Numbered from the stretch's first letter, positions 8,683-22,766 are shown. The stretch: DNA of 32,000 bases from Pirellula staleyi DSM 6068 (GCA_000025185.1 CP001848.1:1110001-1142000), one strand, 5' to 3'. A program made the numbers and translations. Notes: generated by a model not told the origin, from the letters alone.

Positions 8683-8688
8683 CACCCC

Positions 8689-8776
8689 TCACCGGGTGGC
8701 CCTGCTGGCTTGCGTAGGGCAGGCTCCCGCCTGCCGACAATCACCGGGTGGCTACTAGCTGGCTCGTCCAGCAGTG
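8689..8776 (+). repeat. Compound intergenic repeat: repeat-A core hairpin nested between two repeat-B-like half units
   Basis: tcaccgggtggccctgctggcttg (8689-8712), then cgtagggcaggctcccgcctgccga (A core), then tcaccgggtggctactagctggctcgtccagcagtg. CCCTGCTGG at 8700-8708 can pair with CCAGCAGTG at 8768-8776, which is the B-type stem with one mismatch. Confidence 0.6.
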
Positions 8777-8793
8777 TCCCTCGCATCACGACC

Positions 8794-8845
8794 TCGACTT
8801 ACAGTCAGAACCTTTCTTTCTGTAAGTCGATTTTGATGCGTTTTT
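8794..8845 (+). terminator. Candidate intrinsic terminator downstream of 6019-8682
   Basis: Perfect 10-bp inverted repeat, TCGACTTACA at 8794-8803 and TGTAAGTCGA at 8821-8830. It is followed by TTTTGATGCGTTTTT. The 17-nt loop is long and the stem is only moderately GC-rich, hence moderate confidence. Confidence 0.4.
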
Positions 8846-9053
8846 CGAGTGGTTTTTGATCCGTTTTTGCAAAATGCCCCTCGCCGACCATTTCTCGGCC
8901 AGGGTAAAATACAGACGGCAACCATAGCCCCGGATGGCTTTCTACTCAGGAAGTCAGCCGGGGTTTTTTGCTACCCCACCTCCCACCGATGCGAGCCTTC
9001 CCACCTGCCTTTGGGCTCGCCCCCTACTGAACGTTTGCATGAGAGTTCCTGTG

Positions 9054-10850
9054 ATGAAAAGCACCTCCTTTTCGCTCTACACGCTGGCTGTGGCAGCTGC
9101 TATTGCCCTGTCGTCATCGCTGGCAACAGCTCCTCGCGCCATCGCCCAAGAGCCCAGCCCCGTCGCGCCGTTTCTCAAGCTTTTGGCGAGTGGTCGCGTG
9201 CCAGCGGAACGTCAGCCTCTGATCCTCGAGAACATCTGCAAACGTGGAACGGCTGACGATCTCGCCGTGGTTCTCGAACGCATCCTTACCGACGAAACAA
9301 CCACCGACGACTTGAAGCAAAGCGTCCTCGGCTGGCTCACCGATGCCGCCACCACGCGTAAAGTGAAACCTAGCGGCGATCTAGCAGGCATCGCAAAACT
9401 CATCACCGCCAGCAAAAGCGCTAAGCTGCAACTGGCGGCTGTGAAACTCGCTGGCGAGTGGCAAGTCGCTGGCATTGGCGACGCGCTCGCGCAATTGGCT
9501 CAAAGCGAAACCGCTTCGCCCCAGTTGCAAGAGGCCGCGATGCAAGGGCTCGCCGCCATGGGAGATGACTCCAGCAAACAGTTGCTCGAGAAGCTCGCTG
9601 CATCTTCCCAATCGATTCGCGTTCGAACACTCGCCGCTGCAGCGCTTGTGAAGTCGAACCTCGATGTGGCTGCCAAACTGGGGGCTGCTACGCTCGCCGC
9701 CAGCAGCGTCGCCGACGATCCAGCGCCAATGATTGAAGCGATCCTGAATCGCCAAGGTGGTTCCGATAAATTGGCCGAAGCGCTCGCTGGCGAAAAGCTG
9801 CAAGCCGATGTGGCCAAGATGGCGCTCCGCTTCATGTATTCGATTGGTCGCAGCGATGAAGCTCTTTCGGCGATCCTTAGCAAAGCGGCAGGTGTCGCGC
9901 TCGATACCCCACCACCCACCGCCGAAGAAGTCGAGAAGCTCGTCGCCGAAGTGAACGAAAAAGGTGACGCAGCGCGTGGCGAAAAGGTCTTTCGTCGCGC
10001 CGATGTCAGCTGCATGAAGTGCCACGCCATCAACCGCGCTGGTGGTCAAATCGGCCCGGAACTTTCGGCCCTCGGTGGCATTTCGCCAGTCGACTACATC
10101 GTCAACTCGATCCTCAATCCCGACCTCGCTAAAAAAGAGCAGTACCTCACACGGATCGTCCTCACGGTCGATGGCGAAACCTTCACCGGCATCGTGGTCG
10201 ACGAAGACGACGTGAAGATGAACCTCAAAGATGCGTCGGGCAAAATCATCACGATCGCCATCGACGATATCGAAGCTCAAAAAGAGGGCAAGTCGCTTAT
10301 GCCGCAGGGACTAACCAAGTTCCTCACGCACGACGAACTGCTCGACCTTATCAAATACGTTTCGGTCCTCGGTAAGCCGGGCGAGTATGCCCTGCGCACT
10401 GTTCCTGCCATTCAAAAATGGAAGGTCCTCAAAGCACCTTCTGCAGAACTCGCCGGCGATGTTCCCAATGTGGAAATCGTCCGCGAGCATATCCTCGATC
10501 TCCCCGCTGAAGCGTGGCAAGCGATCTACGGCACCACCAGCGGCGCATTACCCCTCGACGAAGTGAAACCGATTGTCCAAGGCTCTCCCGTCGTGATCTT
10601 GCAGGGGGAAGTAAACGTCATCACTGGCGGCGAAGTCACACTGCAAACCACCTCGAGCGAACCTGCTCAAATCTGGATCGATGCCGAACCGTTCGAAGCC
10701 AGCGGACCGATCACCACGCTCCTGAGCCAAGGGATGCACAAGATCACCGTTCGCACCAAGATCGGCGATTCTCCCAGCCCGTCGCTGAAAGTCGAACTCG
10801 CCAAGCCCGAAGGGAGCGAAGCCCAGTTCGACGTCGTCGGAGGTAACTAA
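9054..10850 (+). CDS. Secreted HEAT-repeat protein with c-type cytochrome (CxxCH) domain
   Basis: Signal peptide MKSTSFSLYTLAVAAAIALSSSLATAPRAIA from the ATG at 9054. Ala/Leu-rich HEAT-like repeats. Heme motif within GEKVFRRADVSCMKCHAINRAGGQIGPELS, followed by a MPQGL-type distal Met region. Confidence 0.85.
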   Translation: MKSTSFSLYTLAVAAAIALSSSLATAPRAIAQEPSPVAPFLKLLASGRVPAERQPLILENICKRGTADDLAVVLERILTDETTTDDLKQSVLGWLTDAATTRKVKPSGDLAGIAKLITASKSAKLQLAAVKLAGEWQVAGIGDALAQLAQSETASPQLQEAAMQGLAAMGDDSSKQLLEKLAASSQSIRVRTLAAAALVKSNLDVAAKLGAATLAASSVADDPAPMIEAILNRQGGSDKLAEALAGEKLQADVAKMALRFMYSIGRSDEALSAILSKAAGVALDTPPPTAEEVEKLVAEVNEKGDAARGEKVFRRADVSCMKCHAINRAGGQIGPELSALGGISPVDYIVNSILNPDLAKKEQYLTRIVLTVDGETFTGIVVDEDDVKMNLKDASGKIITIAIDDIEAQKEGKSLMPQGLTKFLTHDELLDLIKYVSVLGKPGEYALRTVPAIQKWKVLKAPSAELAGDVPNVEIVREHILDLPAEAWQAIYGTTSGALPLDEVKPIVQGSPVVILQGEVNVITGGEVTLQTTSSEPAQIWIDAEPFEASGPITTLLSQGMHKITVRTKIGDSPSPSLKVELAKPEGSEAQFDVVGGN

Positions 10851-12118: not shown

Positions 12119-12856
12119 CTACGCAAAATCTTGCACGAGGGGTTTGATGATGAGTTCGGGGATGTGAGCGCGGGGAGGAAGCTGCGCGATGGCGACGACC
12201 ATGTGCCCCAAATCTTCGGGCAGCAGCATCTTGGCGCGGCGTTCGGCCGAGACAGGCTGCGGGCGATTTGCCAAAATGGGTGTATCGACTTCTCCGGGGA
12301 AAATGTTGGTCACGCGAATGCCGTTGGCCGATTCTTCATTTGCCACACCGGTACCCAGTGCGTCGACCGCAAACTTGGAAGCATTATAAGCAATACCTCC
12401 CAGAGGCATTGCGCGTTTTCCGCTCGTCGAGGAGATGTTAATAATCAACCCCTCTTTGCGGTCACGCATACCAGGCAAAGCGTAATACAAACAGTTATAA
12501 ACACCCGTGGCGTTGGTTTGCATCACTTCGTCCCATTGATGCGGCTCCATATTGCCCATCGCGCGTGTTTTAATATTAATACCGGCTGCGTTCACTAAAA
12601 TATCAATTTTAGAAAGGGTCTTATAAGCCCATTCCAAGAGGGTTTTGACACTCTCGCGATTGGCCACGTCGCAAAGGTGCGTCAGGACCTTGGGTCCCTC
12701 GGTGATGCTGGCCGCTGCTGCTTCGAGCACTTCGGCGCGACGTCCGCTGATGGCCACCTGGACCCCAGCAGCAGCGAGCGCTCGGGCAATCCCGAGTCCG
12801 ATTCCGCTTCCACCTCCGGTGATGAGTGCGGTTTTGCCTGCCAGTGATGGTGACAT
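12119..12856 (-). CDS. Short-chain dehydrogenase/reductase (SDR)
   Basis: Cofactor motif KTALITGGGSGIGLGIA and catalytic YNASK (YxxxK). The ATG at 12856 (MSPSLAGK) is preferred over the ORF-track start at 12925. Confidence 0.9.
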   Translation of the reverse strand: MSPSLAGKTALITGGGSGIGLGIARALAAAGVQVAISGRRAEVLEAAAASITEGPKVLTHLCDVANRESVKTLLEWAYKTLSKIDILVNAAGINIKTRAMGNMEPHQWDEVMQTNATGVYNCLYYALPGMRDRKEGLIINISSTSGKRAMPLGGIAYNASKFAVDALGTGVANEESANGIRVTNIFPGEVDTPILANRPQPVSAERRAKMLLPEDLGHMVVAIAQLPPRAHIPELIIKPLVQDFA

Positions 12857-12940
12857 CGGTCTGATCCTTCCAAGCGGAGAGTATTTTGCGAGAAAGCGGG
12901 AATCGGGGAGTCGGCTCGAGCGCACGATAGCAGTGAAAGT

Positions 12941-12975: not shown

Positions 12976-13287
12976 AAACTCCGAATATCGCTTCGCAAGA
13001 GCCGAATAGTGGTGTGGGAACGGGTTTATCGCCTGACGAGCACGAGCTTGCAAGTGGCGACGAGTGGTCAGCAGCGGGAAGCTCGTGCCGGGAAGTTTCG
13101 ATCGACCGCTGGCCGTACAGTTGCGAGTGCGCACAACAGTACCGATAATGGGGGACACTGGAGCTTAGCCAGAGACACTCCCCTGCTCTGCCGCAACCTG
13201 CGGCCAGAGGTGTGTAGTTGCTTGGTTTCGTCCCCTTTCGGCTTTCGTTCGGTCTGCCTGATTCCCGTCGACGAGAGCGTGAGACCC

Positions 13288-14400
13288 ATGTCCGAGCGAC
13301 CCCAAAAACTCGACTCGATCATCCGTGTGGTGACCCCCGAGAACATCGCGTTTGAATATCGCGTGGCAGGTCCGTTTCGTCGTTTGCCAGCACTTCTGCT
13401 CGACTACACGCTGATCAGCTTTTTTATCGTCTCGATTTTCTTAGGCCTGCAGCTCACCATTGGCCTAATGAGCACCGGTCTGGCGGTCGGCTTGGGGCTC
13501 GTCTGCAAGTTCGTCCTGAGCTGGTTCTATGGTGGTCTCTTCGAAACGTTTATGAACGGTCAGACCCCGGGCAAATGGGTGTTTGGTTTGCGGGTGCTGA
13601 CGTTCGATGGCCGACCGATTAACGGTTTGCAGGCGGTGATGCGAAACGTGCTGCGACTGGCCGATACGTTTTGCGGCGTCGGGCTGGTGGCGATGGCGCT
13701 CAATAACCGCTATCAGCGCCTCGGCGATTTGGTTTGCGGCACGATCGTGGTGGTGGAAGAAAAGCCGTGGCTCACCGGGGTTGCGAAGCTCGAAGATCCG
13801 CGTGCGATTCAGCTGGCTGGCTATTTGCCCCCCAATTTTGTCGTGACGAAAACGCAGGCCAAAGCGCTGGCGAATTTTGTCGAGCGGCGCCGCTTCTTCT
13901 CGCCGCAGCGTCGACGCGAAGTGGCACGTCACTTGGCCGAGCCACTGCTGGTGAAATTCGGTTTGCCTGCCGACACGAGCTACGATCTGCTGCTCTGCGC
14001 GCTCTACTACCGGACGTTCATCGCCGACCGCACGGACGACGAACGACAGCTGGCCGAAGCGACCGCGAGTGCACGGATGCAAAATGCGTTTGGAGCGGCG
14101 GGGCTGGCCAGCGGCATTCCGAACCCCGCGATGGCGCAAGCGTTTGGCTACGGGGGACAGCCTGCGATGTCGCTCGCGCAGCAAGCAGCAACGCCGATGG
14201 CAGCAGCCGCGAGCAGCACGATTGCCGGGTATGTGCCGCAAGGGTATACGCCGCAGCAGCCTGCTTATCCGGGCTCTGGCTATCCGGGGCCCACTTATCC
14301 GGGTCAGAGTTTCGCGCCGCCGCAAAATGCTCCAGGATCGTTCGCGCCGATTGCTCCACCACCTCTCTCACCGCCGGTACCACCTCCGAAGCCTTCGTAA
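13288..14400 (+). CDS. RDD-family membrane protein with Tyr/Pro/Gln/Gly-rich C-terminal tail
   Basis: FRRLPALLLDYTLISFFI and following TM helices, a GQTPGKWVFGLRV block typical of RDD domains, and a DLVCGTIVV block. The ATG at 13288 (MSERPQKLD) is preferred over 13009. The last ~110 aa are low-complexity. Confidence 0.8.
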   Translation: MSERPQKLDSIIRVVTPENIAFEYRVAGPFRRLPALLLDYTLISFFIVSIFLGLQLTIGLMSTGLAVGLGLVCKFVLSWFYGGLFETFMNGQTPGKWVFGLRVLTFDGRPINGLQAVMRNVLRLADTFCGVGLVAMALNNRYQRLGDLVCGTIVVVEEKPWLTGVAKLEDPRAIQLAGYLPPNFVVTKTQAKALANFVERRRFFSPQRRREVARHLAEPLLVKFGLPADTSYDLLLCALYYRTFIADRTDDERQLAEATASARMQNAFGAAGLASGIPNPAMAQAFGYGGQPAMSLAQQAATPMAAAASSTIAGYVPQGYTPQQPAYPGSGYPGPTYPGQSFAPPQNAPGSFAPIAPPPLSPPVPPPKPS

Positions 14401-14463
14401 TTCAGCTCGCCTCGCTCGTTCCTCGCGCTCGATAATTGCCCCTCGCATGACAAGTGTTCGCCG

Positions 14464-15459
14464 ATGAAAGTACTCGAACTTCTCGAACGACGACGGCAGA
14501 ACTGGCAAGAGCTCGAGCGCCTGTGCGATCGCTTGCAAGAGTCGCAAGGGTCGCTGCATCTGTCGCCGGTCGAGCTGTCGCGGTTTGGAACTTTGTATCG
14601 CGCTGCGTGCGCCGATTTGGCGCTGGCCGATTCGTATCAACTGCCGCAAAACACGGTGCAGTATCTGCATCGCCTGGTCGGACGCTCGCACAATCAGCTC
14701 TATCGTTCGCGCCGCTTTCAAGTGAAGCAGTGGCTCGAAATTCTACTGACCGACGTTCCGCAGCGGATCTTCAACGATCGGTGCGTGCAGCTGATGTTTG
14801 TGCTCTTCTGGGGGATGTTCATTCTGTCCGGTTTTTTGGCCTATTCGAAAACAGCATGGCCCGACTTTGCCACGCAAGTGCTGGGTGCCGAGCAGATCGA
14901 AGCGCTCGAGGCCATGTATGCCAATCCGATCGACGGCTCGCAGCGCAGCGGTGATGAAAATGCAGGGATGGCTGGCTTCTATGCCGACCACAATACCGGC
15001 ATCGGCTTGCAATGCTTTGCCTGGGGACTGCTCGTGGTGCCGGGGATGGCAGTGACGATGTTCAACGCCATCTCGCTCGGCGCGGCGTTTGGCTACATGG
15101 CCCGCCCCGACGTCGAGGAAGGAAAGCACTTCTTCGAATTCGTGACAGCACATGGTCCGTTCGAGCTCACCGCGATCATTTTGTCGGCCGGGGCGGGGCT
15201 CAGGCTCGGGCTTTCGTGGATGATGACCGGTGGCATTTCGCGCATCGATAACTTGCGCAAGACAGGGACCGAAACGTTGCCCCTGATGGGTGCCGCCGGG
15301 ATCATGTTTTTTATGGCTGCACTGATCGAAGGGTTCCTCTCACCCTCAGCGGCGCCTTATTGGCTGAAGGCGACTGTCGCGATTCTCTCCAGCGGGCTGT
15401 TGTCGTTCTATTTCCTGGTGCTGGGTTTCCCGCGGAGTCTTCTCGTTGCAACTCGATAA
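14464..15459 (+). CDS. Stage II sporulation protein M-like (SpoIIM/DUF95) integral membrane protein
   Basis: N-terminal soluble helix region MKVLELLERRRQNWQELERL...FGTLYRAACADLALA. Multiple TM helices. HGPFELTAIILSAGAGLRLG block characteristic of the family. Confidence 0.8.
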   Translation: MKVLELLERRRQNWQELERLCDRLQESQGSLHLSPVELSRFGTLYRAACADLALADSYQLPQNTVQYLHRLVGRSHNQLYRSRRFQVKQWLEILLTDVPQRIFNDRCVQLMFVLFWGMFILSGFLAYSKTAWPDFATQVLGAEQIEALEAMYANPIDGSQRSGDENAGMAGFYADHNTGIGLQCFAWGLLVVPGMAVTMFNAISLGAAFGYMARPDVEEGKHFFEFVTAHGPFELTAIILSAGAGLRLGLSWMMTGGISRIDNLRKTGTETLPLMGAAGIMFFMAALIEGFLSPSAAPYWLKATVAILSSGLLSFYFLVLGFPRSLLVATR

Positions 15460-16330
15460 CACGCGCATTGCCGTTCGGCAGCGCACCTTACTCGAAACGC
15501 TCGATCTCGCGCTGGTAGTGATCCGCGAGTTCTTCCATCCGTGGCTCTCCACCACGCTGATGATGGTGGTGCCACTCTGGATCATCAACTACCTGCTGAT
15601 TGGCTGGATGGCGAACGAGGACCTCGAAAATGGCGACTTTCCTTTCCGATTTACTTGGAACATGTTGCTGCTGATCTACCTCGAGGCCCCCCTGGCTTCG
15701 ATCTTTACGGTCGCCTTTTTTGGCCCCGCTGTCTTCATGCAAAATCCGAAGCTGAAACAAGTGGCGCGTGATCTGCTGAAGGTCTCGCCAGCGCTGTTGT
15801 TCTGTCATGGATTCTTGCGCGGCGTGCTGCCAGCGTGGGGACTCCTGCTGCTGGTGGATGAATATGAAGCTTCGCCCGTCGAGTTTTTCTTCCTCCCCAT
15901 GATCTGCCTTTGGTCGACCGGCATGCGCATCGCGCGCCCGTTCATTTCCGAGATCATATTGCTCGAGAAGAATCCGCTCCGCGCGAAACGTCCCGGACAA
16001 ATTTCGATCAACATGCGGAGTGCCGACTTGCATGGCCCCAGCTTTGGCGACTTGTTTGTGCAATGGATGGCGAGTGTGCTTGTCGGTGTTTTCCTCTACG
16101 CCCTGTTTGCTTTTTCACTTTCGATTTTGGCCCACTTTCTGCTGAGCGATTCCGACCTCAATTGGTGGAAGTTACAGTTCCTCTACCCGGGAGTCGGCTG
16201 GCTGGTGGTGGGCTATTTTTCGATCGTCCGTTTTTTGAACTACGTCGATTTACGAATCCGTCACGAAGGTTGGGAAGTAGACTTACTGATGCGGGCCGAA
16301 GCGATTCGACTCTCCGGCCGCATGCTGTAG
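15446..16330 (+). CDS. Polytopic membrane protein, uncharacterised
   Basis: 294-aa ORF with several hydrophobic helices and GC3-rich codons from the first codon. The TTG start overlaps the upstream stop by 14 nt. No ATG is available until about codon 39. No family recognised. Confidence 0.65.
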   Translation: MQLDNTRIAVRQRTLLETLDLALVVIREFFHPWLSTTLMMVVPLWIINYLLIGWMANEDLENGDFPFRFTWNMLLLIYLEAPLASIFTVAFFGPAVFMQNPKLKQVARDLLKVSPALLFCHGFLRGVLPAWGLLLLVDEYEASPVEFFFLPMICLWSTGMRIARPFISEIILLEKNPLRAKRPGQISINMRSADLHGPSFGDLFVQWMASVLVGVFLYALFAFSLSILAHFLLSDSDLNWWKLQFLYPGVGWLVVGYFSIVRFLNYVDLRIRHEGWEVDLLMRAEAIRLSGRML

Positions 16331-16414
16331 CGAGGCTCGCAGCGATGTCGACCTGAGCAGAACTGCAGCACGCACATCCCGTCACGCACTCCAAGGTTTT
16401 GTTTTTTGATCACC

Positions 16415-17323
16415 ATGCCCCAGCGCAACGCAAACACTCGACGACCAGCGAAGCTCGCCGCGTTTCTCTCGGCGCTGGCGCTAGCGTGTCTCGCTGCGAC
16501 GTCGGCCTGGGGCTGGCAATCACCCGCCGAGTTGCAGGGGCACGCGCCGCACATGGCTCTGGGACTGCAGCGTGCCGAGCAAGAGTACACCGCGGAAGAA
16601 GATCAGAAAGCGATTGAAGCGGCGCGCGATGCCCTTGCGAGCCAGGCAAACTTTCCGTTCTACGACGAGTCGAAAGACGCGATTCGAAAGATCAATATTC
16701 CGCCCCAAGAGCTCCCCCAAAAATCAAAAACAACCACCGGCGGCACGAACTCGGCGAAAGCTAGGCCGACCACCACTCGCGCTGGAACCACCACCGGCAG
16801 CGGACTGTCGGGTTTCAGCAGCGTGCTGCAAGTGCTGGGGCTGATCGTTTTAATCGCGGCCCTCGTGGCGATTGCCGTGCTGATTGCCCGCACCTTCCTG
16901 CGGGGTGAAGTGGCGGAGCAAAACAGTGCCGAGCTCGAACTTGGTCCGTCGCGCGATGTCGATCGAGTCGAGCAGTTACCGTTTCAGCTCAAGCGCCCCA
17001 GTGGCGACTTCCTCACCGAAGCACGCCTGGCGTATGAGCAAGGTGATTTCGCCCGCGCGATCATCTATTTCTACAGTCATCAACTGGTGCAACTCGACCG
17101 GCATCAATGGATTCGTTTGTCGAAGGGGAAAACGAATCGACAGTACCTCCGCGAACTTCGCAGCAAGCCCGAACTGCGAGATTTACTCGACGAAACGATT
17201 CTCTTGTTCGAGTCCGCTTTTTTTGGTCATCACGATATCACACGCTCTCAGTTCGAAGCGGTGTGGCGTCGCGCAGGTGAATTTCAGCAGCTTGTTCTTC
17301 AGCAGGAGGCACTCACCGCATGA
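16415..17323 (+). CDS. DUF4129 domain membrane protein
   Basis: Signal/anchor MPQRNANTRRPAKLAAFLSALALACLAATSAWG from the ATG at 16415. Central TM VLQVLGLIVLIAALVAIAVLIA. C-terminal FLTEARLAYEQGDFARAIIYFYSHQLVQL...TNRQYLRELR matches the DUF4129 pattern. Confidence 0.75.
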   Translation: MPQRNANTRRPAKLAAFLSALALACLAATSAWGWQSPAELQGHAPHMALGLQRAEQEYTAEEDQKAIEAARDALASQANFPFYDESKDAIRKINIPPQELPQKSKTTTGGTNSAKARPTTTRAGTTTGSGLSGFSSVLQVLGLIVLIAALVAIAVLIARTFLRGEVAEQNSAELELGPSRDVDRVEQLPFQLKRPSGDFLTEARLAYEQGDFARAIIYFYSHQLVQLDRHQWIRLSKGKTNRQYLRELRSKPELRDLLDETILLFESAFFGHHDITRSQFEAVWRRAGEFQQLVLQQEALTA

Positions 17324-18600
17324 GCACCGCCCCCGCTTCTTCTAGCTCACCTTACTCCTCGAGCAGTGGTAATTCGGCAAGCAGTTCGGCCAAGAGCAGT
17401 TCCTCCAAGTCATCGTCGGCGATTGTGCCACTGGCTCTGGTCGGACTCTTTATCGTCACGCTGCTGATGCTCTGGTTCTATTTCACCTCCCGCACCTCCG
17501 ACACCATCACGTCGGAATACGGTAAGCGCCGCGCTAGTGGTGCCACCGATAGTGTGAATGGCACCTCGGTCCTTGCCGAGATGTTCAAAGCGACCGGACG
17601 CCGCGTCGAAACGATCAACCAACTTTCGCCACGTCTCGAGCGTTATCAAACGATCGTCTGGTTTCCGGATGATTTTTCTCCACCCTCTGCCGAACAGCGC
17701 GAAGCGCTCGAGGACTGGCTCTTCGACGGGAGTGGCCGGGTGCTGATCTATGTCGGTCGCGACTACGATGCTCGATCCGACTACTACAACGACATTCGGC
17801 CGCTCGTCAAAAAAGAAGAACGTAGCGAGTTCGAGCGACGTCGCGCCACGGCCAAATCGCAGTTCGATAGTGCTCGAGCTTCGATGCCCAAACAAGGCTT
17901 CTCGCGCTGGTTTACTGCCAAGCGCGATGGCAAACGAACGGTAGTTAAATCGCTAAGCGGTCCCTGGGCCGAAGGGATCGACGTCACCAAGACCGATCTC
18001 GAACTGCAAGGGCGTCTCGATATTCCGATCGAATCGGATCGCAATGCGACAGTCGATCCCGCGCTGCCGACAGAGACCGAAGCCCTGCTCGAAACCGACG
18101 AAGGGGATGTCCTCGTGAGCTCCATCATCGATGAAGCTTATCTCGGGAGCGGGCAGATCGTGGTCGTTGCGAATGGTGGTTTCGTTCTTAACTATCCGCT
18201 CGTGAATCACGAGCATCGAAAGCTCGCCTCGCGACTGATTGCCGAAACCGATCCCAAAGGGAAAGTTGCGTTTCTCGAGAGTGGTCCCGGTGGCCCCCCT
18301 GTCGTCGATCGCGAACCAGCCGAGGAATCGCAGGCTGCGATTGCGATTTTGAAAGTCTGGCCACTCAGTGCCATCATGCCGCACCTCGTGATTTTTGGCG
18401 TCATGCTTTGTCTGGCACTCTCCCCCATTTTTGGACGTCCGAAAGAATTGCCGCGCGAGACACTGGCCGACTTTGGTAAACATGTTGCCGCGCTGGGACA
18501 ACTGTTGGCCCGCACGCGCGATCGAGGCTATGCCCTGCTGCGACTCGAGCAATACCGTCAGCAAGGGCGCCGCGATTCGGGACGCTCGCATCTGAAGTAA
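17320..18600 (+). CDS. DUF4350 domain membrane protein
   Basis: ATGA overlap with the upstream stop. Ser-rich N-terminus, then a TM helix (IVPLALVGLFIVTLLMLWFYF). GTSVLAEMFKATGRRVE...TIVWFPDDF...GRVLIYVG pattern as in DUF4350 proteins. Second TM near the C-terminus. Confidence 0.7.
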   Translation: MSTAPASSSSPYSSSSGNSASSSAKSSSSKSSSAIVPLALVGLFIVTLLMLWFYFTSRTSDTITSEYGKRRASGATDSVNGTSVLAEMFKATGRRVETINQLSPRLERYQTIVWFPDDFSPPSAEQREALEDWLFDGSGRVLIYVGRDYDARSDYYNDIRPLVKKEERSEFERRRATAKSQFDSARASMPKQGFSRWFTAKRDGKRTVVKSLSGPWAEGIDVTKTDLELQGRLDIPIESDRNATVDPALPTETEALLETDEGDVLVSSIIDEAYLGSGQIVVVANGGFVLNYPLVNHEHRKLASRLIAETDPKGKVAFLESGPGGPPVVDREPAEESQAAIAILKVWPLSAIMPHLVIFGVMLCLALSPIFGRPKELPRETLADFGKHVAALGQLLARTRDRGYALLRLEQYRQQGRRDSGRSHLK

Positions 18601-18713
18601 ACCATCCTCTGCTGTTCATCGATCACCACCCGCGCTAGTCGCTCGCTGTACCACACTTTTAGCCACTCGACGTTCAGCGTCGAACTCACGACATACTGGG
18701 AACTTTCCGCTTC

Positions 18714-20279
18714 ATGAGTAATGCACCCCTCGGACCCGATGCATCCGCTGGCTCGGCCGCTACGATTGAGTTTCACTGCAGCAGTTGTCAGCGAAGTTTG
18801 CGAGTTCCCGCTTCAGCGGCTGGCAAGCGGGCAGCCTGCCCACAGTGCAACGCGATTGTGCAAGTTCCGGCCGCGACGGCACCCGCAGCAAGCACGCTAG
18901 GTTCCGTCGATCCGCTCGCAACTGCTGCCTCGGGAAGCACACCCGGAAGCTTGTCGCTCGGCTCTCCCATGTCGTCGGGCGCTCCGCTGTCGACCGGCAA
19001 TGTCGCGGCAGCCTCTCCGAGCATGATGCCTGGCAGCAACCTCCCCAGTTCAGGAATGCCGAGCGCTGGCGCGACATCGCTTCCACCGATCTCAGCGCCG
19101 GCTGCTTCACCGTTTGGCGCAATCCCGCCGCAGCAACAGCCGTTCGCGCCACAGACGAGCTATCCCCAGCCAACCTATCCGCAGCCAAGCTACGGCCAGA
19201 TGCCACCAGTGAGTTCGGGCTACGGCAGCACGCCGTTTGGAAATTCCGCGCCCACCACCACTCCCACTTCGTCGGCACCTCCGCCAGCGGCGCTAAAACT
19301 CACTGGCAATGCCGCCACAGGTTCGCAGACACGCACCAAGCAATTGTTCGATCGCATCACGAGTGAAATTGCCAAGGTCTACGTCGGTCAAGACGAACTC
19401 GTGCTCGGCGCGCTTGTCGCACTCTTCTCGAGCGGACACGTGCTGATCGAAAGTGTCCCGGGACTCGGTAAAACGCTGCTCGTTCGCGCGCTCGGACGGG
19501 TCCTCGGCTGTCACTTCGGACGTATTCAGTTCACCGCCGACTTGATGCCGAGCGATGTCACCGGCGCTCCGATCCTCGACATGAAAACGCAAGAGTTCCG
19601 CTTCCGTCCGGGACCTGTCTTCACGCAGCTGCTTCTGGCCGACGAAATCAACCGCGCACCGGCGAAAACACACGCCTCGCTCCTCGAAATCATGCAGGAA
19701 TATCGCGTGACGGTCGATGGCAAGAGCCACGTCATCGAGCGTCCGTTCCTGGTCCTCGCGACGCAAAACCCGATCGAGTCCGAAGGTACCTACAACCTGC
19801 CCGAAGCTCAGCTCGACCGCTTCATGTTCAAGCTCGTTGCCAGCTATCCACGCGAGCACGAAGAGGCGCAGATTCTGAAGCTGCATAGCCAGCAGAAGAG
19901 CCTCGAGAAACAGCTCGAACAAGAGGTGGCCACCGTTACCAATCCGAAAGAGATTCTCGAGATCATCGCCCAGAACGCGCAGGTCCGTGTCGACGATCGG
20001 CTGGTCGATTACATCAACAAGATTGTGCGTCTCACGCGGCAATGGCCGAAGTTCCACATGGGTGCTTCACCGCGCGCGGGTCTGGCACTCATGCAGTCGG
20101 CTCGCACGCTCGCTGCCTTTAGTGGTCGCGACTACGCTGTGCCCGACGATGTATTTCAAATCGCTCTGCCTGCTCTGCGCCATCGTGTGGTGCTGACCGC
20201 AGAAGCGGAAGTCGAAGGCTACAAGGTCGACGATCTGCTCACCGAATTGATTCGTTCGGTGGAGGTGCCGCGCCTTTGA
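18714..20279 (+). CDS. moxR: MoxR-family AAA+ ATPase with ~205-aa N-terminal zinc-ribbon plus low-complexity extension
   Basis: AAA_3-type core: VYVGQDELVLGALVALFSSGHVLIESVPGLGKTLL (Walker A), LLADEINRAPAKT (Walker B), VLATQNPIESEGTYNLPEAQLDRF. The N-terminus has CSSC-x16-CPQC followed by a Pro/Ser/Ala/Tyr/Gln-rich linker. Confidence 0.92.
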   Translation: MSNAPLGPDASAGSAATIEFHCSSCQRSLRVPASAAGKRAACPQCNAIVQVPAATAPAASTLGSVDPLATAASGSTPGSLSLGSPMSSGAPLSTGNVAAASPSMMPGSNLPSSGMPSAGATSLPPISAPAASPFGAIPPQQQPFAPQTSYPQPTYPQPSYGQMPPVSSGYGSTPFGNSAPTTTPTSSAPPPAALKLTGNAATGSQTRTKQLFDRITSEIAKVYVGQDELVLGALVALFSSGHVLIESVPGLGKTLLVRALGRVLGCHFGRIQFTADLMPSDVTGAPILDMKTQEFRFRPGPVFTQLLLADEINRAPAKTHASLLEIMQEYRVTVDGKSHVIERPFLVLATQNPIESEGTYNLPEAQLDRFMFKLVASYPREHEEAQILKLHSQQKSLEKQLEQEVATVTNPKEILEIIAQNAQVRVDDRLVDYINKIVRLTRQWPKFHMGASPRAGLALMQSARTLAAFSGRDYAVPDDVFQIALPALRHRVVLTAEAEVEGYKVDDLLTELIRSVEVPRL

Positions 20280-21703
20280 ACGATCCCATCACCAATCTCT
20301 TTACCAACTACGGCGATTTACTGCTGAAAAACGCGGGGCTGCTCGGTGCGGCGTTTGTCGTTCCGCTCCTCTGGCTCGCCGTCTATCGCCGTGTCTTCGC
20401 CAACATTCCGCTGGTGGTGCTGCTGGCCATCCCTGCGCTACTGTCGTTCTCGCTCCTGTTTCAGCAGCAACTGTTTAGCGTCATCATCTGGGTCGACGCC
20501 GCCATTTTCCTGGTCGCGACGATCGATCTCTTCACGCTGCCGGGCAAGCGCGCGCTGCAAATCGAGCGCGAGATGGCACTCGTCGGTTCGCTCAAGAAAC
20601 AGCATCGTGTCACGCTGCATATCAGCAACGTTTCGTCGCGTCGACTTGTCATTTGGCTACGCGATGATGCACCGGCGGAAATGCAAGCAACGCCCGATCG
20701 CTTCACACTGTCGCTCGCACCGCGCAGCCGCACTACGGTGCACTACGATCTTCAGCCGACCCGTCGTGGCTCGTTCACGCTCTACGATGTGCATGTGCGA
20801 GTCCGAAGTCGACTCGGACTTTGGCAACGCTACCTCGAAATTCCGCAGCAATCCGAGCTCCGTGTTTATCCCGACATGAAGCAGCTGTCGGAGTATGCCA
20901 TCCTCGCACGTACCAATCGCCTGAGCTTGATGGGGGTTCGTCGCACGCGGAAAGTCGGCACCGAAAACGATTTTGAACGCCTGCGCGACTACACGCTCGA
21001 CGACAATCACAAGTACATCGACTGGCGCGCCAGTGCCCGACGCAACAAGCTCACAGTCAAAGATTTTCAGACGAGCCAAAGTCAGCGGATCATCTTCCTG
21101 GTCGACTGCGGTCGGCTCATGACCGGTCAATCCAACGGGCTGAGTCTGCTCGATCACTCGCTCAACGCCGTGCTGATGATGAGCTACGTGGCGCTGCGCC
21201 AAGGCGACTCGGTCGGGATGATCTGTTTCTCCGATCGCGTGCTGAAATACGTGCCGCCCCAAGGTGGCATGAATCAAATGAATCAGCTGCTGCACACGTC
21301 GTTCGATCGCTTTCCCGAACTGGTTGAATCGCGCTACGACGAAGCGTTTCTCTACCTCGCCTCGCACTGCAAAAAACGCTCGCTCGTGGTGCTGATCACC
21401 AACGTCATCGACGAGGTCAACGCGCATCAGATCGAGAGCTATCTGGCAACGCTTGTCGGCAAACATTTACCGCTCGGCGTGTTGCTGCGCGATCATCAGT
21501 TGTTCGACGCTGCCGATCGCGATCCGGTCGACGATGCTACGCTCTATCAGGCCGCCGCTGCTGCCGAGATTCTTACCTGGCGACATCAGGTGCTACGCGA
21601 TCTCGAACATCGAGGCGCACTAGCGCTCGATGTTTTTCCCGAAGATATGACCGCGCCGCTGGTCAACAAGTATCTCGAGATCAAAGCGCGGCACTTGCTC
21701 TAA
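20276..21703 (+). CDS. DUF58 protein (vWA-like MoxR partner) with N-terminal TM helices
   Basis: TTGA start/stop overlap with moxR. DDNHKYIDWRASARRNKLTVKDFQTSQSQRIIFLVDCGRLM is the signature DUF58 block. Two N-terminal hydrophobic helices. Confidence 0.85.
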   Translation: MNDPITNLFTNYGDLLLKNAGLLGAAFVVPLLWLAVYRRVFANIPLVVLLAIPALLSFSLLFQQQLFSVIIWVDAAIFLVATIDLFTLPGKRALQIEREMALVGSLKKQHRVTLHISNVSSRRLVIWLRDDAPAEMQATPDRFTLSLAPRSRTTVHYDLQPTRRGSFTLYDVHVRVRSRLGLWQRYLEIPQQSELRVYPDMKQLSEYAILARTNRLSLMGVRRTRKVGTENDFERLRDYTLDDNHKYIDWRASARRNKLTVKDFQTSQSQRIIFLVDCGRLMTGQSNGLSLLDHSLNAVLMMSYVALRQGDSVGMICFSDRVLKYVPPQGGMNQMNQLLHTSFDRFPELVESRYDEAFLYLASHCKKRSLVVLITNVIDEVNAHQIESYLATLVGKHLPLGVLLRDHQLFDAADRDPVDDATLYQAAAAAEILTWRHQVLRDLEHRGALALDVFPEDMTAPLVNKYLEIKARHLL

Positions 21704-21740: not shown

Positions 21741-22766
21741 TTATTCCATCGCCAAACCACGAATCCAATCGGCCAGCTCCTGGGGCAATTGCATGCGCCA
21801 GATCAGCGGCTCGCTCGTGATTGGATGAACGAAACCAAGTTCAGCGGCATGGAGTGCTTGCCGTGGCGCGCCACTCTCGTCGCGCTGCGACTTTTCGCCG
21901 AGCTTATGCGTGTAAACTTTTTCGCCGCAGAGCATGTGCCCCGCTTCGGCCAGGTGAATACGAATTTGATGGGTGCGACCTGTTTCGAGGCGACACTCGA
22001 CAACACTATAGGGGCCGATGGTTTGCATCAGCCGCACGTGTGTCACCGCCCGCTGCGCTTCTTCGGCAACTTTACCGGCAGGACTCGAGCCTCGTAGTCC
22101 ATCCCCTCGATCGCGCACTAAATAGGTTTCGATCTTCTGCTCGACAGGAGTGCCATGCACCACCGCCACGTAAGCGCGCGTCACATGATGCTTCTTAAAG
22201 AGCTTGATGAGCGCCGTCGATGCTTCCGGCGTTCGGGCAAACACCATCAGGCCACTCGTATCGCGGTCGAGTCGATGGACTGCAAAGATGCGCGGCAATT
22301 TCGGCGCAGGCTGGGTGCGACGACCTTTCGCGGCGGCACTACCCGCAGCTTCGCGCGGGATCTTCCAGCCCAAATGCTTGGCGAGGAGACGTGGGAGCAC
22401 TTCGTCGAGCGTGGGCTGTAGCTGTTTACGGCGCGAAGGCCAGTTCTTCTCTTCGGGATGCCGTTCGGTCGTCATCCCTGCAGGTTTTTCGACGACCACG
22501 AGGTGGTTATCGACATGCCGGATGCGGACATCTTTTTCATCGGCCGGTTTCGCGAGTGGATGCTGGTAGACCTTCACGACTTCGCCCGGCTTGAGTCGGC
22601 GCGCTTCGTCGAGGCACAAGTTGCCGTTGACCTGCACATGCTGACCGAGGACGAGCGACTTGACATCGCGCCATGAAATCTGACCTAGCCATCGACGAAT
22701 CGCAGCGGCCAGCGTTTGACCCTGCTCGCGCGACGTGACATGAAAATGCTCGGAGTGGTTGCTCAT
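21741..22766 (-). CDS. RluA-family (RluD-like) pseudouridine synthase with N-terminal S4 domain
   Basis: Catalytic motif HRLDRDTSGLMVFA, a GRTHQIRIHL block, and an S4-like N-terminus (VKSLVLGQHVQVNG...LKPGEVVKV). Confidence 0.9.
   Translation of the reverse strand: MSNHSEHFHVTSREQGQTLAAAIRRWLGQISWRDVKSLVLGQHVQVNGNLCLDEARRLKPGEVVKVYQHPLAKPADEKDVRIRHVDNHLVVVEKPAGMTTERHPEEKNWPSRRKQLQPTLDEVLPRLLAKHLGWKIPREAAGSAAAKGRRTQPAPKLPRIFAVHRLDRDTSGLMVFARTPEASTALIKLFKKHHVTRAYVAVVHGTPVEQKIETYLVRDRGDGLRGSSPAGKVAEEAQRAVTHVRLMQTIGPYSVVECRLETGRTHQIRIHLAEAGHMLCGEKVYTHKLGEKSQRDESGAPRQALHAAELGFVHPITSEPLIWRMQLPQELADWIRGLAME

What the first reader, a model, noticed from the sequence alone, without database searches (positions are those of the whole stretch)
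13288..21703. Seven-gene RDD / SpoIIM-like / TM / DUF4129 / DUF4350 / MoxR / DUF58 cluster: a membrane-anchored AAA+ module with no assigned function
Seen: seven same-strand genes with spacings of 63, -14, 84, -4, 113 and -4 nt. Three junctions overlap (ATGA, TTGA and a 14-nt overlap), which implies translational coupling and a single operon. Six of the seven products have clear TM helices; only the ATPase is soluble. Established: MoxR AAA+ ATPases work as chaperone/remodelling partners of vWA or DUF58 proteins. RDD, SpoIIM-like, DUF4129 and DUF4350 are families without a biochemical function. Recollection to verify: a similar RDD-SpoIIM-DUF4129-DUF4350-MoxR-DUF58 neighbourhood occurs in Actinobacteria, which would make this a cross-phylum conserved but uncharacterised machine. 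Inference: a cytoplasmic-membrane complex in which MoxR/DUF58 remodels or inserts a cofactor or partner into a membrane scaffold. The additional 294-aa polytopic protein and the MoxR extension are lineage-specific embellishments.
Basis: partly seen in the sequence, partly recalled or inferred. Interest (0 to 1): 0.72.

Follow-up and report, generated by a model that had tools for sequence, protein, structure and literature searches.

The report
Conserved membrane-bound MoxR ATPase gene cluster
Seven tightly packed genes in Pirellula staleyi encode six membrane proteins and one ATP-driven chaperone; the same set recurs in at least five bacterial lineages, including mycobacteria, so it is a real, widespread membrane module whose job nobody has tested.

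Summary
Seven + strand genes lie at the stated coordinates with the stated spacings, and the six Pfam assignments are correct: RDD, SpoIIM, DUF4129, DUF4350, MoxR (AAA_3) and DUF58. The window is Pirellula staleyi DSM 6068 (g3 = Psta_0901).

Synteny is well beyond chance. The order RDD-SpoIIM-g3-DUF4129-DUF4350-MoxR-DUF58 recurs in every sufficiently complete locus of 34 from Planctomycetota, Gamma/Betaproteobacteria and Myxococcota, and the flanks are unrelated. Alphaproteobacteria keep the set in a permuted order. Actinobacteria keep it with rearrangements.

The 294-aa protein g3 is not a local embellishment. It belongs to a large family without a Pfam model (954 clusters at 50% identity), and in Proteobacteria it is fused to the DUF4129 protein.

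New details:
- The DUF58 subfamily of this cluster has a degenerate MIDAS (D-x-G instead of D-x-S-x-S) in all five lineages.
- Conserved residues of g3 and g5 lie on the cytoplasmic face.
- The periplasmic DUF4350 domain models as a non-catalytic amidotransferase-like fold.

Most likely this is one inner-membrane complex that MoxR/DUF58 remodels from the cytoplasm. Its function is untested. It is a new variant of a known kind, of moderate interest.

The parts
13121..13149 (+). sigma-70-like promoter match upstream of g1 (weak, optional)
   Evidence: TTGCGA-17-GATAAT, 9 of 12 matches. The number of such sites in the region equals the shuffle expectation, and planctomycete promoters may differ, so this is only a candidate.
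13288..14400 (+). g1: RDD-family membrane protein (370 aa). RDD domain at residues 26-150, a further stretch to about residue 220 that the orthologue profile also covers, then a Pro/Gln/Ala/Gly-rich tail.
   Evidence: Pfam RDD 3.7e-18. The iterated orthologue profile covers about residues 7-225 (ORF residues 124-342) and matches an ORF directly upstream of the SpoIIM-like gene in nearly every locus. ATG at 13288.
14464..15459 (+). g2: SpoIIM/DUF95-family polytopic protein (331 aa) with an N-terminal region of about 100 aa upstream of the first membrane segment, matching the position of Pfam DUF8413 in homologues
   Evidence: Pfam SpoIIM 6.4e-29 at residues 112-294. Nocardia homologues carry precomputed PF28475 (DUF8413) plus PF01944. 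The four-phylum alignment A2 extends over the N-terminal region.
15446..16330 (+). g3: six-TM protein of a family without a Pfam model (294 aa; Psta_0901). Invariant N-terminus MQLDNTRIAxRER, conserved loop RPxIxEIILLEKNPL, and C-terminal motif DLRIRHEGWEVELLMRAE.
   Evidence: 100% identity to Psta_0901. 954 representatives at 50% identity with E<=1e-3. Alignment A1. No Pfam hit even at E<=5. hhalign against the N-terminal half of the proteobacterial fusions gives probability 96.9%, E 1.5e-10. AF2 model is all-helical, pLDDT 69.5, with no significant PDB match.
16415..17323 (+). g4: bitopic protein (302 aa). Signal/anchor helix, low-complexity segment inferred periplasmic, TM at 140-158, then a C-terminal DUF4129 domain inferred cytoplasmic.
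   Evidence: Pfam DUF4129 1.3e-09 at residues 222-286. TM segments. Fused to g3 in Proteobacteria and to g5 in the MAG locus L006.
17320..18600 (+). g5: DUF4350 protein (426 aa). Ser-rich N-tail, TM at 35-53, amidotransferase-like domain inferred periplasmic, TM at 349-367, and a conserved C-terminal tail (FGRP..F..H..A.G) inferred cytoplasmic.
   Evidence: Pfam DUF4350 1.3e-20. AF2 pLDDT 76, core above 90. Foldseek PDB hits are to chains whose shared element I take to be the GATase1-like non-catalytic domain (7vkz, 5xb7, GH164), probability up to 0.99 but E only 6e-3. No invariant Cys outside TM2. Cross-phylum conservation is concentrated in the C-terminal tail.
18714..20279 (+). g6: MoxR AAA+ ATPase (521 aa). 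The N-terminal CxxC...CxxC zinc ribbon (residues 18-52, nt 18765-18869) and the disordered linker of about 160 aa are lineage-specific. The AAA+ module spans about residues 213-519.
   Evidence: AAA_3 4.7e-61 and AAA_lid_2 4.3e-21. Weak FmdB zinc-ribbon hit, 0.0017, below cut-off. PDB 2r44 at 6.7e-68. Stretches I read as Walker A, Walker B, sensor 1, Arg finger and sensor 2 are conserved in 33 orthologues. The extension occurs only in the window and L007-L011.
20276..21703 (+). g7: DUF58 protein (475 aa). N-terminal TM helices, then a vWA-like domain with a degenerate MIDAS (VDCGRLM).
   Evidence: DUF58 1.6e-23 and VWA_2 1.2e-4, below cut-off. TM segments at about 19-87. D-[CSAT]-G-x-x-M in all cluster-type orthologues, against DFSNSM in an unrelated DUF58.

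Best explanation
The seven genes are one operon. They encode a cytoplasmic-membrane complex that a MoxR AAA+ ATPase (g6) remodels from the cytoplasmic side, through its membrane-anchored, MIDAS-less vWA-type adaptor DUF58 (g7).

The parts acted upon are integral membrane proteins:
- A platform pair: RDD (g1) and DUF8413-SpoIIM (g2).
- A chain of three proteins that weave through the membrane: the six-TM protein g3, the bitopic DUF4129 protein g4, and the bitopic DUF4350 protein g5.

These proteins expose conserved tails and the DUF4129 domain to the cytoplasm. They expose a single globular, non-catalytic amidotransferase-like domain (DUF4350) to the periplasm.

Shown:
- The gene set, the topology-relevant hydrophobic segments and the conserved linkage of the genes.
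- The fusions g3::g4 and g4::g5.
- The conserved ATPase stretches and the degenerate MIDAS.
- The fold class of DUF4350.

Inferred:
- The proteins form one complex.
- DUF58 docks onto the cytoplasmic elements (DUF4129, the g3 C-terminal EGW(D/E)(V/I)E helix, the g5 tail).
- ATP hydrolysis switches the assembly or conformation of the membrane scaffold, and so the state of the periplasmic DUF4350 domain.

The physiological role I consider most likely is maintenance or remodelling of the cell envelope or membrane, not metal-cofactor insertion.
For: Gene set and operon signals:
- Seven same-strand genes, three of them with overlapping junctions, and no terminator-like site in the gaps.
- In Catenovulum all junctions are overlaps or a 1-nt gap.

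Conserved linkage:
- The same order occurs in 11 planctomycete, 21 gamma/betaproteobacterial and 1 myxococcal locus with unrelated flanks.
- The permuted order DUF805-DUF4129-DUF4350-MoxR-DUF58-SpoIIM-RDD in Paracoccus and Rhizobium keeps both halves linked.
- Actinobacteria keep the set with rearrangements.

Fusions:
- g3::DUF4129 occurs in all proteobacterial loci and in several representative clusters.
- DUF4129::DUF4350 occurs in L006.

ATPase and adaptor:
- The stretches I read as Walker A, Walker B, sensor 1, Arg finger and sensor 2 of MoxR are conserved.
- The DUF58 MIDAS is degenerate in five lineages, whereas an unrelated DUF58 is canonical.

Where the conservation lies:
- Invariant residues of g3 lie in the N-terminus, the loop at residues 160-205 and the C-terminus. 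These are cytoplasmic by the positive-inside rule (model).
- Cross-phylum conserved residues of g5 lie in its C-terminal tail.
- DUF4350 has an amidotransferase-like fold without a conserved Cys. This agrees with Makarova et al. 2015 (PMC5898192).

Weak support from the literature:
- Rv3694c (annotated as SpoIIM in PMC8191103) and Rv3695 (annotated there as RDD family) were both recovered in one Mtb membrane co-IP (PMC8093794).
Against: - There is no direct evidence of co-transcription, physical interaction or any phenotype.
- RDD plus SpoIIM occur without a neighbouring MoxR module in Bernardetia (L002). In Nocardia the RDD gene is on the opposite strand and an unrelated gene separates the two halves. 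The two halves can therefore be separated.
- g3 is replaced by DUF805 in Alphaproteobacteria, and DUF4350 is not detectable in Nocardia. The composition is therefore not fixed.
- Topologies come from hydropathy and the positive-inside rule only.
- The g4::g5 fusion rests on a single MAG and could be an assembly error.
- The strong joint down-shift of the cluster in M. chelonae could reflect a deletion rather than regulation.
Confidence: 0.5

Rival explanations
1. It is a secretion or transport apparatus. The polytopic proteins (SpoIIM-like, RDD, g3) would form a conduit, the GldG-like DUF4350 domain would handle a periplasmic or surface substrate, and MoxR/DUF58 would assemble or energise it. 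Makarova et al. predicted this for the archaeal DUF4350-MoxR-vWA neighbourhood.
For: - DUF4350 resembles GldG/ABC_transp_aux. In archaea it is linked to MoxR plus vWA, and the authors read that as a novel secretion system (PMC5898192). There is a weak ABC_transp_aux hit in the Catenovulum orthologue.
- SpoIIM/DUF95 proteins are standard components of circular-bacteriocin clusters, together with a YIP1 membrane protein and an ABC transporter (bioRxiv 10.1101/2025.10.31.685828).
- Three polytopic proteins are conserved in the cluster.
Against: - No cargo gene, ABC ATPase, outer-membrane component or S-layer/Ig-like protein is conserved in or beside the cluster.
- The periplasmic domain is the least conserved part across phyla.
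- The g3 model has no transporter-like match in the PDB.
Confidence: 0.2
2. MoxR/DUF58 is a maturation chaperone that inserts a metal or cofactor into a client enzyme encoded elsewhere, as NorQ/NorD, CoxD/CoxE and CbbQ/CbbO do. The membrane proteins would merely localise it.
For: - From established knowledge of characterised MoxR-vWA pairs: they mature or activate enzymes.
- g6 gives weak hits to the chelatase families BchI/BchD and CobT-like, E 3e-12 to 7e-4, far below their cut-offs.
Against: - The metal-binding MIDAS of the vWA-like domain is degenerate in every orthologue.
- No enzyme gene is conserved in the flanks across phyla.
- Five membrane partners are conserved instead, and two of them are fused to each other.
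Confidence: 0.1
3. Two unrelated modules (RDD+SpoIIM, and g3/DUF4129/DUF4350/MoxR/DUF58) merely sit side by side.
For: - The RDD+SpoIIM pair stands without an adjacent MoxR module in Bernardetia.
- In Nocardia the RDD gene is on the opposite strand and an adenosine-deaminase gene separates the halves.
Against: - The two halves are adjacent in Planctomycetota, Gamma-, Beta- and Alphaproteobacteria, Myxococcota and Actinomycetota. This holds despite about 30% protein identity, unrelated flanks and a permuted order in Alphaproteobacteria.
- g2 and g3 overlap by 14 nt in the window and by 11 nt in Catenovulum.
Confidence: 0.07
4. It is an anti-phage or conflict system of the MoxR-vWA ternary type.
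For: A bpMoxR Pfam hit sits exactly at its cut-off (27.0 bits).
Against: - The AAA_3 hit is far stronger (205 bits).
- There is no beta-propeller or effector gene.
- None of the seven proteins hits PADLOC.
- Vertical-looking conservation of one fixed set, without the variable island context typical of defence loci.
Confidence: 0.03

Closest known systems
Mycobacterial Rv3689-Rv3695 cluster (M. chelonae MAB_0386c-0392c; includes moxR2/Rv3692)
   Same: - It contains the same families: RDD, SpoIIM-like, DUF58, MoxR, DUF4350 and a membrane protein, listed as neighbours in PMC8191103.
- Nocardia loci show (g3-like?)-DUF4129-MoxR-DUF58 next to RDD and DUF8413-SpoIIM.
- The DUF58 has the same degenerate MIDAS.
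   Different: - In the Nocardia loci the RDD gene is on the opposite strand to the other genes, and an unrelated gene can intervene.
- DUF4350 is not detectable in Nocardia.
- The counterpart of g3 is only marginally similar.
- No function is known there either.
MRP-subfamily MoxR-DUF58 operons with membrane partners: the Bacteroides Bat (aerotolerance) operon and MoxR-DUF58-transglutaminase operons (bifidobacterial PFNA cluster; TgpA-type proteins whose C-terminus is DUF4129)
   Same: - A MoxR (AAA_3) gene is immediately followed by a DUF58 gene and is linked to integral membrane proteins (PMC8430577 and PMC12067865).
- From memory of the Pfam description, not tested here: DUF4129 is the C-terminal domain of membrane transglutaminases. 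If so, DUF4129 recurs as a partner of MoxR-DUF58.
- The proteobacterial g3::g4 fusion (polytopic N-domain, periplasmic segment, TM, DUF4129) has the same layout as TgpA minus the enzyme core. This too rests on memory of the TgpA layout.
   Different: - g1-g7 have no transglutaminase core, no BatA/BatB vWA proteins and no TPR proteins.
- Instead the partners are RDD, SpoIIM-like, g3 and DUF4350.
- The MIDAS is degenerate here.
Archaeal arCOG01314 (DUF4350)-MoxR-vWA neighbourhood, predicted to be a secretion or membrane-remodelling complex (Makarova, Galperin, Koonin 2015, PMC5898192)
   Same: - A DUF4350 membrane-anchored extracytoplasmic flavodoxin-like domain occurs with a COG0714 ATPase and a vWA protein.
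- The same paper notes bacterial SpoIIM homologues next to a vWA protein and a COG0714 ATPase.
   Different: - The archaeal loci add S-layer/Ig-like proteins, which are absent here.
- RDD, g3 and DUF4129 are not described there.
SpoIIM of the Bacillus subtilis DMP engulfment complex, and DUF95 proteins of circular-bacteriocin clusters
   Same: - g2 belongs to the same Pfam family, PF01944.
- In each case the protein is a polytopic membrane protein encoded or acting with other membrane proteins (PMC5898192; bioRxiv 2025.10.31.685828).
   Different: - None of the window ORFs scanned matched SpoIID or SpoIIP, and there is no bacteriocin precursor or ABC transporter.
- g2 has an extra N-terminal region, matching the position of DUF8413 in homologues.
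Characterised MoxR-vWA chaperone pairs (CbbQ/CbbO, NorQ/NorD, RavA/ViaA)
   Same: Working analogy from established knowledge: a hexameric MoxR ATPase uses a vWA-domain adaptor to grip and remodel a client.
   Different: - Those adaptors use a functional MIDAS and act on soluble or respiratory enzymes.
- Here the adaptor is membrane-anchored and MIDAS-less, and the conserved neighbours are non-enzymatic membrane proteins.

Membership tests
MoxR AAA+ ATPase, MRP subfamily | AAA_3 core with Walker A and B, sensor and Arg-finger motifs, plus the AAA_lid_2 domain | tested here: met
   AAA_3 4.7e-61 and AAA_lid_2 4.3e-21. The stretches GLGKT, LLADEINRA, ATQNP, PEAQLDRF and GASPRA, which I read as those motifs, are largely conserved in 33 orthologues. 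PDB 2r44 at 6.7e-68.
MoxR AAA+ ATPase, MRP subfamily | A DUF58 gene immediately downstream (Snider and Houry 2006 criterion, as cited in PMC12067865) | tested here: met
   g7 (DUF58) overlaps the g6 stop codon by 4 nt.
DUF58 / vWA-like adaptor | Match to Pfam PF01882 | tested here: met
   1.6e-23, 83.5 bits against a cut-off of 23.4.
DUF58 / vWA-like adaptor | Canonical metal-binding MIDAS, D-x-S-x-S | tested here: not met
   VDCGRLM in the window. D-[CSAT]-G-x-x-M in orthologues from five lineages. DFSNSM in an unrelated DUF58 of L017.
RDD family (PF06271) | Pfam match above the gathering score | tested here: met
   66.6 bits against a cut-off of 24.1.
SpoIIM / DUF95 family (PF01944) | Pfam match above the gathering score | tested here: met
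   101.4 bits against a cut-off of 26.9.
Functional SpoIIM (sporulation DMP engulfment complex) | Acts with the SpoIID and SpoIIP peptidoglycan hydrolases in an endospore former | tested here: not met
   None of the 26 window ORFs scanned against Pfam matched a SpoIID or SpoIIP family. The organism is a planctomycete. Only the window was examined, not the whole genome.
Bat (aerotolerance) operon | MoxR-DUF58 followed by the BatA/BatB vWA membrane proteins and the TPR proteins BatC/BatE | tested here: not met
   No vWA protein apart from g7 and no TPR protein in or next to the cluster.
TgpA-type MoxR-DUF58-transglutaminase operon | Membrane protein with a transglutaminase core domain ending in DUF4129 | tested here: not met
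   DUF4129 is present in g4, but no transglutaminase-core hit occurs in g3, g4 or the 12 proteobacterial fusions, even at E<=1.
Archaeal arCOG01314 predicted secretion/remodelling system | DUF4350 protein plus COG0714 ATPase plus vWA protein in one neighbourhood | tested here: met
   g5, g6 and g7. Definition from PMC5898192.
Archaeal arCOG01314 predicted secretion/remodelling system | Accompanying S-layer or Ig-like membrane/secreted proteins | tested here: not met
   None found in the cluster or in conserved flanks.
RDD-SpoIIM-DUF4129-DUF4350-MoxR-DUF58 neighbourhood (Rv3689-95 type) | All six families encoded contiguously | tested here: met
   In the window. In 30 or more loci of other lineages. 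In the M. chelonae table.
MoxR-vWA-beta-propeller ternary conflict systems | A beta-propeller partner and effector context | tested here: not met
   bpMoxR sits only at its cut-off (27.0 bits). There is no propeller gene and no PADLOC hit.
FmdB-type zinc ribbon (N-terminus of g6) | CxxC...CxxC ribbon matching TIGR02605 | tested here: inconclusive
   Four Cys at residues 22, 25, 42 and 45, conserved in the window and L007-L011. TIGR02605 scores 18.4 bits against a cut-off of 31.3.

The most novel reading that the evidence does not exclude
The cluster encodes a previously unrecognised inner-membrane machine driven by an AAA+ ATPase. It would be conserved from Planctomycetota to Proteobacteria, Myxococcota and Actinomycetota, including M. 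tuberculosis Rv3689-95. In it, a MIDAS-less vWA adaptor (DUF58) would couple MoxR ATP hydrolysis to a SpoIIM/RDD/g3 membrane platform and to a periplasmic DUF4350 module. That would be a new class of envelope-remodelling or export apparatus, distinct from every characterised MoxR system. g3 and DUF4129 would be its defining client or transducer.
Probability: 0.25. Interest if true: 0.75.

Novelty: new variant of a known kind. Interest (0 to 1): 0.5.

Why it matters
MoxR-DUF58 pairs and non-sporulation SpoIIM homologues are among the most widespread bacterial proteins without a known role.

This cluster ties both to a fixed set of membrane partners, so it offers a defined seven-component system that can be tested genetically and structurally. 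Tractable organisms that carry it include Rhizobium, Paracoccus, Pseudoalteromonas and mycobacteria.

The work here adds four things:
- A seventh family, g3, which has no Pfam model and is fused to DUF4129 in Proteobacteria.
- Fusion evidence that g3, g4 and g5 act together.
- A MIDAS-less DUF58 subfamily that marks this cluster.
- The observation that conservation is concentrated on the cytoplasmic face, which points to where MoxR acts.

If the complex proves to be an envelope-remodelling or export device, it would also assign a role to a block of seven neighbouring M. tuberculosis genes.

Tried and rejected
Searches that found nothing for g3:
- Pfam and NCBIfam gave nothing, even at E<=5 over 21 homologues.
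- Foldseek against the PDB returned only generic helical bundles, TM-score about 0.27.

Genome scan:
- The four-phylum SpoIIM alignment A2 was too divergent for the genome scan. A three-sequence alignment worked.
- That scan used one peptide pattern derived from cluster-type SpoIIM proteins. It samples orthologues, not the whole SpoIIM family.

Homology tests that failed or were marginal:
- The actinobacterial 260-aa protein against g3: hhalign probability 2-3%, no hit with a combined profile, and only an iterated E of 2e-5. It is left as 'possible'.
- The C-terminal extension of the Bernardetia SpoIIM-like protein against g3: no similarity.
- The C-terminal part of the Nocardia DUF4129 protein against DUF4350: none.

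The TgpA/transglutaminase link of DUF4129:
- It could not be verified in the plasmid collection or in the papers. It is kept as a recollection only.

Other negatives:
- PADLOC gave no hit.
- Rfam and tRNA scans of the window found nothing.
- Sequence search of the PDB found nothing for g2, g5 or g7.
- Conserved flanking genes were sought across phyla and none was found. A neighbouring SDR gene recurs in four loci but is not general.

Evidence not relied on:
- The joint 6-8 log2 down-shift of the cluster in M. chelonae was not used as evidence of co-regulation, because a deletion would look the same.

Full report
**1. The observation**

The window comes from Pirellula staleyi DSM 6068: g3 is 100% identical to Psta_0901. 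Seven + strand ORFs occupy 13288-14400 (g1), 14464-15459 (g2), 15446-16330 (g3), 16415-17323 (g4), 17320-18600 (g5), 18714-20279 (g6) and 20276-21703 (g7).

Pfam gives RDD for g1, SpoIIM for g2, nothing for g3, DUF4129 for g4, DUF4350 for g5, AAA_3 plus AAA_lid_2 for g6, and DUF58 with a sub-threshold VWA_2 hit for g7. NCBIfam adds only weak chelatase-type hits and a weak zinc-ribbon hit for g6.

A hydropathy scan finds transmembrane-like segments in six products. The one hydrophobic stretch in MoxR lies immediately before the AAA_3 match and runs into the Walker A loop. No terminator-like hairpin falls in the three intergenic gaps, and a weak promoter-like site lies upstream of g1. The neighbouring genes are convergent or divergent and unrelated: an SDR at 12119-12925 on the - strand and an RluD-type pseudouridine synthase at 21741-22766 on the - strand.

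**2. Is the gene set conserved?**

I anchored a scan of one genome per GTDB species on a three-phylum alignment of the SpoIIM-like protein. It returned 34 loci:
- 11 from Planctomycetota.
- 20 from Gammaproteobacteria (mostly Alteromonadales, plus Atopomonas, Endozoicomonas, Alcanivorax and an Acidiferrobacterales MAG).
- 1 betaproteobacterial MAG.
- 1 Myxococcales MAG.
- 1 short unclassified MAG contig.

Iterated profiles built from the window proteins found the same order in every locus with enough flank: RDD, SpoIIM, g3, DUF4129, DUF4350, MoxR, DUF58. For the Myxococcales locus, DUF4350 was confirmed by Pfam.

RefSeq annotation of a Catenovulum adriaticum megaplasmid shows the same series, with every junction an overlap or a 1-nt gap.

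Alphaproteobacteria carry the set in a permuted order: DUF805, DUF4129, DUF4350, MoxR, DUF58, SpoIIM, RDD. This was seen in Paracoccus and in Rhizobium, where 53 plasmid or chromid records hold the DUF58 orthologue. The two halves therefore stay linked after rearrangement.

In Actinobacteria, Nocardia loci hold a 260-aa membrane protein, DUF4129, MoxR, DUF58, RDD (opposite strand) and DUF8413-SpoIIM. A published M. chelonae table lists the adjacent genes as RDD, SpoIIM, DUF58, MoxR, DUF4350 and a membrane protein, and equates them with Rv3689-Rv3695 (PMC8191103).

One caveat applies: the genome scan used one peptide pattern taken from cluster-type SpoIIM proteins. It shows that orthologues keep their neighbours, not how often any SpoIIM homologue has them. 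In Bernardetia (Bacteroidota), RDD and SpoIIM stand without an adjacent MoxR module.

**3. The seventh gene, g3**

g3 belongs to a large family: 399 hits in the 90% clusters and 954 representatives at 50% identity, 364 of them below 1e-30. No Pfam model matches it.

Its N-terminus (MQLDNTRIAxRER), an internal loop (RPxIxEIILLEKNPL...RS..LH) and its C-terminus (DLRIRHEGWEVELLMRAE) are invariant among 21 planctomycete homologues.

Several representatives are proteins of about 550-610 aa in which the g3 domain is followed by DUF4129. In all proteobacterial loci a single ORF occupies the positions of g3 and g4. Twelve of these fusions align well. They start with M(Q/E/D)(L/I)(D/N) and carry Y-L-N-R-R-V-x-L-E-G-W-D-I-E-L at the end of the first domain. 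Six of them hit DUF4129. Profile-profile comparison of the planctomycete family with the fusions gives probability 96.9%, E 1.5e-10, over the whole length of g3.

g3 is thus a core component in three phyla, not a Pirellula embellishment. It is not universal. Alphaproteobacteria have DUF805 in its place. The actinobacterial 260-aa protein shares only the terminal Y-V-D-R-R-x-R-x-E-G-x-D-I motif and a marginal profile score.

An AlphaFold2 model of g3 (pLDDT 69.5, pTM 0.69) is an all-helical bundle of six membrane helices. It has no significant match in the PDB.

**4. Other anatomy**

- One Pirellulaceae MAG (L006) has DUF4129 and DUF4350 in a single stop-free ORF. With the g3::g4 fusions, this suggests that g3, g4 and g5 act as one unit. 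An assembly error in that MAG cannot be excluded.
- By hydropathy and the positive-inside rule, the chain would run as follows (topology inferred):
  - g3, six TM helices, with both ends in the cytoplasm;
  - the g4 anchor helix, leading out of the cell;
  - a low-complexity periplasmic linker;
  - a TM helix leading back in, followed by the cytoplasmic DUF4129 domain;
  - the first TM helix of g5, leading out, followed by the periplasmic DUF4350 domain;
  - the second TM helix of g5, leading in, followed by a cytoplasmic tail.
- The invariant residues of g3 sit on the predicted cytoplasmic segments.
- Across phyla, the conserved residues of g5 are almost all in the C-terminal tail (FGRP..F..H..A.G). 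The periplasmic domain is poorly conserved.
- The g5 model (pLDDT 76, core above 90) matches chains of a GH35-like beta-1,2-glucosyltransferase, GH42 and GH164 enzymes, and class I amidotransferases. Probability reaches 0.99, but the E-values are only about 1e-2. I take the shared element to be their amidotransferase-like non-catalytic domain. This agrees with the GldG/beta-galactosidase-trimerisation similarity reported by Makarova et al. (PMC5898192). There is no conserved cysteine outside the second TM helix, so an enzyme of the amidotransferase type is unlikely.
- The stretches I read as Walker A, Walker B, sensor 1, Arg finger and sensor 2 of MoxR are conserved.
- The N-terminal CxxC...CxxC ribbon and the disordered linker of about 160 aa in MoxR occur only in the window and five related Pirellulales loci.
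- In DUF58 the MIDAS position reads D-[CSAT]-G-x-x-M in orthologues from all five lineages. An unrelated DUF58 in the same Pseudoalteromonas locus reads D-F-S-N-S-M. This cluster therefore uses a distinct DUF58 subfamily that probably binds no metal.

**5. What it most likely is**

The best-supported reading is a single cytoplasmic-membrane complex. The MoxR hexamer would work through its membrane-anchored DUF58 adaptor on the cytoplasmic elements of the membrane proteins: DUF4129, the g3 termini and loop, and the g5 tail. It would thereby control the assembly or conformation of a platform made of RDD, SpoIIM-like protein and g3, and the state of the periplasmic DUF4350 domain.

Shown:
- The gene set, its linkage across lineages and the fusions.
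- The conserved ATPase stretches and the degenerate MIDAS.
- The location of conserved residues and the fold class of DUF4350.

Inferred:
- Physical association of the proteins.
- The docking sites of DUF58.
- The physiological role.

I favour envelope or membrane remodelling, for two reasons. No enzyme, cargo or transporter gene is conserved with the cluster. And the characterised relatives of the parts are scaffolds or assembly factors:
- SpoIIM in the engulfment complex (PMC5898192).
- DUF95 proteins in circular-bacteriocin clusters.
- MoxR-DUF58 with membrane transglutaminases.

Weak outside support: Rv3694c and Rv3695 were both recovered in one M. tuberculosis membrane co-immunoprecipitation (PMC8093794).

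Rivals:
- A secretion or transport device, as Makarova et al. proposed for the archaeal DUF4350-MoxR-vWA loci.
- A cofactor-insertion chaperone for a client encoded elsewhere. The degenerate MIDAS and the lack of a conserved enzyme partner weaken this.
- Two unrelated adjacent modules. Linkage in six lineages and in two different gene orders weakens this.
- A defence system. There are no PADLOC hits and no propeller or effector gene.

**6. Comparison with what is known**

The cluster is a member of the uncharacterised RDD-SpoIIM-DUF4129-DUF4350-MoxR-DUF58 neighbourhood, which includes Rv3689-Rv3695. It belongs to the broader, known kind 'MRP-type MoxR plus DUF58 with membrane partners'.

It fails the defining features of several related systems:
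- The Bat operon: no BatA/B and no TPR proteins.
- TgpA/PFNA-type operons: no transglutaminase core.
- The sporulation DMP complex: no SpoIID or SpoIIP match among the window ORFs scanned.
- The archaeal system as drawn: no S-layer or Ig-like proteins.
- The MoxR-vWA-propeller conflict systems: no propeller.

Parts of the neighbourhood were noted in 2015 (PMC5898192). Full-text searches found no paper that names DUF4129 together with DUF4350, and no functional study of the mycobacterial genes.

**7. Verdict**

The finding is real and the families are correctly named. The cross-phylum claim is confirmed and extended. One interpretive claim (g3 as lineage-specific) is refuted, and one (the MoxR extension) is upheld.

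It is a new variant of a known kind rather than something categorically new. The function remains unknown, but the system is now defined well enough to test. Interest 0.5.

Noticed in passing
window 28351-31324 (- strand), running towards the window end: Mu-like phage head genes: Portal_Mu (28351-29496, 4e-13), Phage_Mu_Gp36 (29545-30039, 3e-11) and major capsid protein E (30212-31324, 7e-11). Probably a Mu-like prophage or a remnant.
   Followed up: partly
window 935-1801 (+): IS4/IS5-type DDE transposase: DUF4096 plus DDE_Tnp_1.
   Followed up: no
window 12119-12925 (-); L001 7437-8135; L002 11024-11728; L038 13962-14729: A short-chain dehydrogenase gene lies next to or near the cluster in Pirellula, Catenovulum, Bernardetia and Nocardia. 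It was not found as a conserved flank in the wider locus set, so this may be coincidence.
   Followed up: partly
L001, L036, L040, L041 and 53 Rhizobium records: In Proteobacteria the cluster often sits on secondary replicons: Catenovulum pCadTS8_2, Gayadomonas pG7, Paracoccus plasmid II and Rhizobium chromids/plasmids. This suggests an accessory, niche-linked role.
   Followed up: no
L017 15883-16374 (-); L016 8708-9289 (+); L026 16227-16763 (+); L029 16419-17006 (+): Some Gammaproteobacteria add small membrane proteins at the cluster edges. These are a DUF4234 protein downstream (7 loci), an unassigned 190-aa membrane protein 4-18 nt upstream of RDD (5 loci), or a second RDD paralogue after DUF58.
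   Followed up: partly
L002 8986-10839 (+): The Bernardetia SpoIIM-like protein is 617 aa, with a C-terminal polytopic extension of about 300 aa. The extension shows no detectable similarity to g3. It is paired with RDD, with no MoxR module nearby.
   Followed up: partly
L017 1203-3143 (-) and L020 1370-3319 (-): Pseudoalteromonas carries a second, unrelated MoxR-DUF58 pair about 6 kb upstream of the cluster, with a canonical DFSNSM MIDAS. It served as an internal contrast to the cluster-type DUF58.
   Followed up: yes
window 26327-27829 (-): A 500-aa protein with two GGDEF matches (4.5e-67), a diguanylate cyclase-type protein.
   Followed up: no
window 6019-10850 (+): Typical planctomycete genes: DUF7133/HEAT/GDSL protein (887 aa) and HEAT/cytochrome c protein (638 aa). 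A sulfatase lies upstream at 3878-5509.
   Followed up: no
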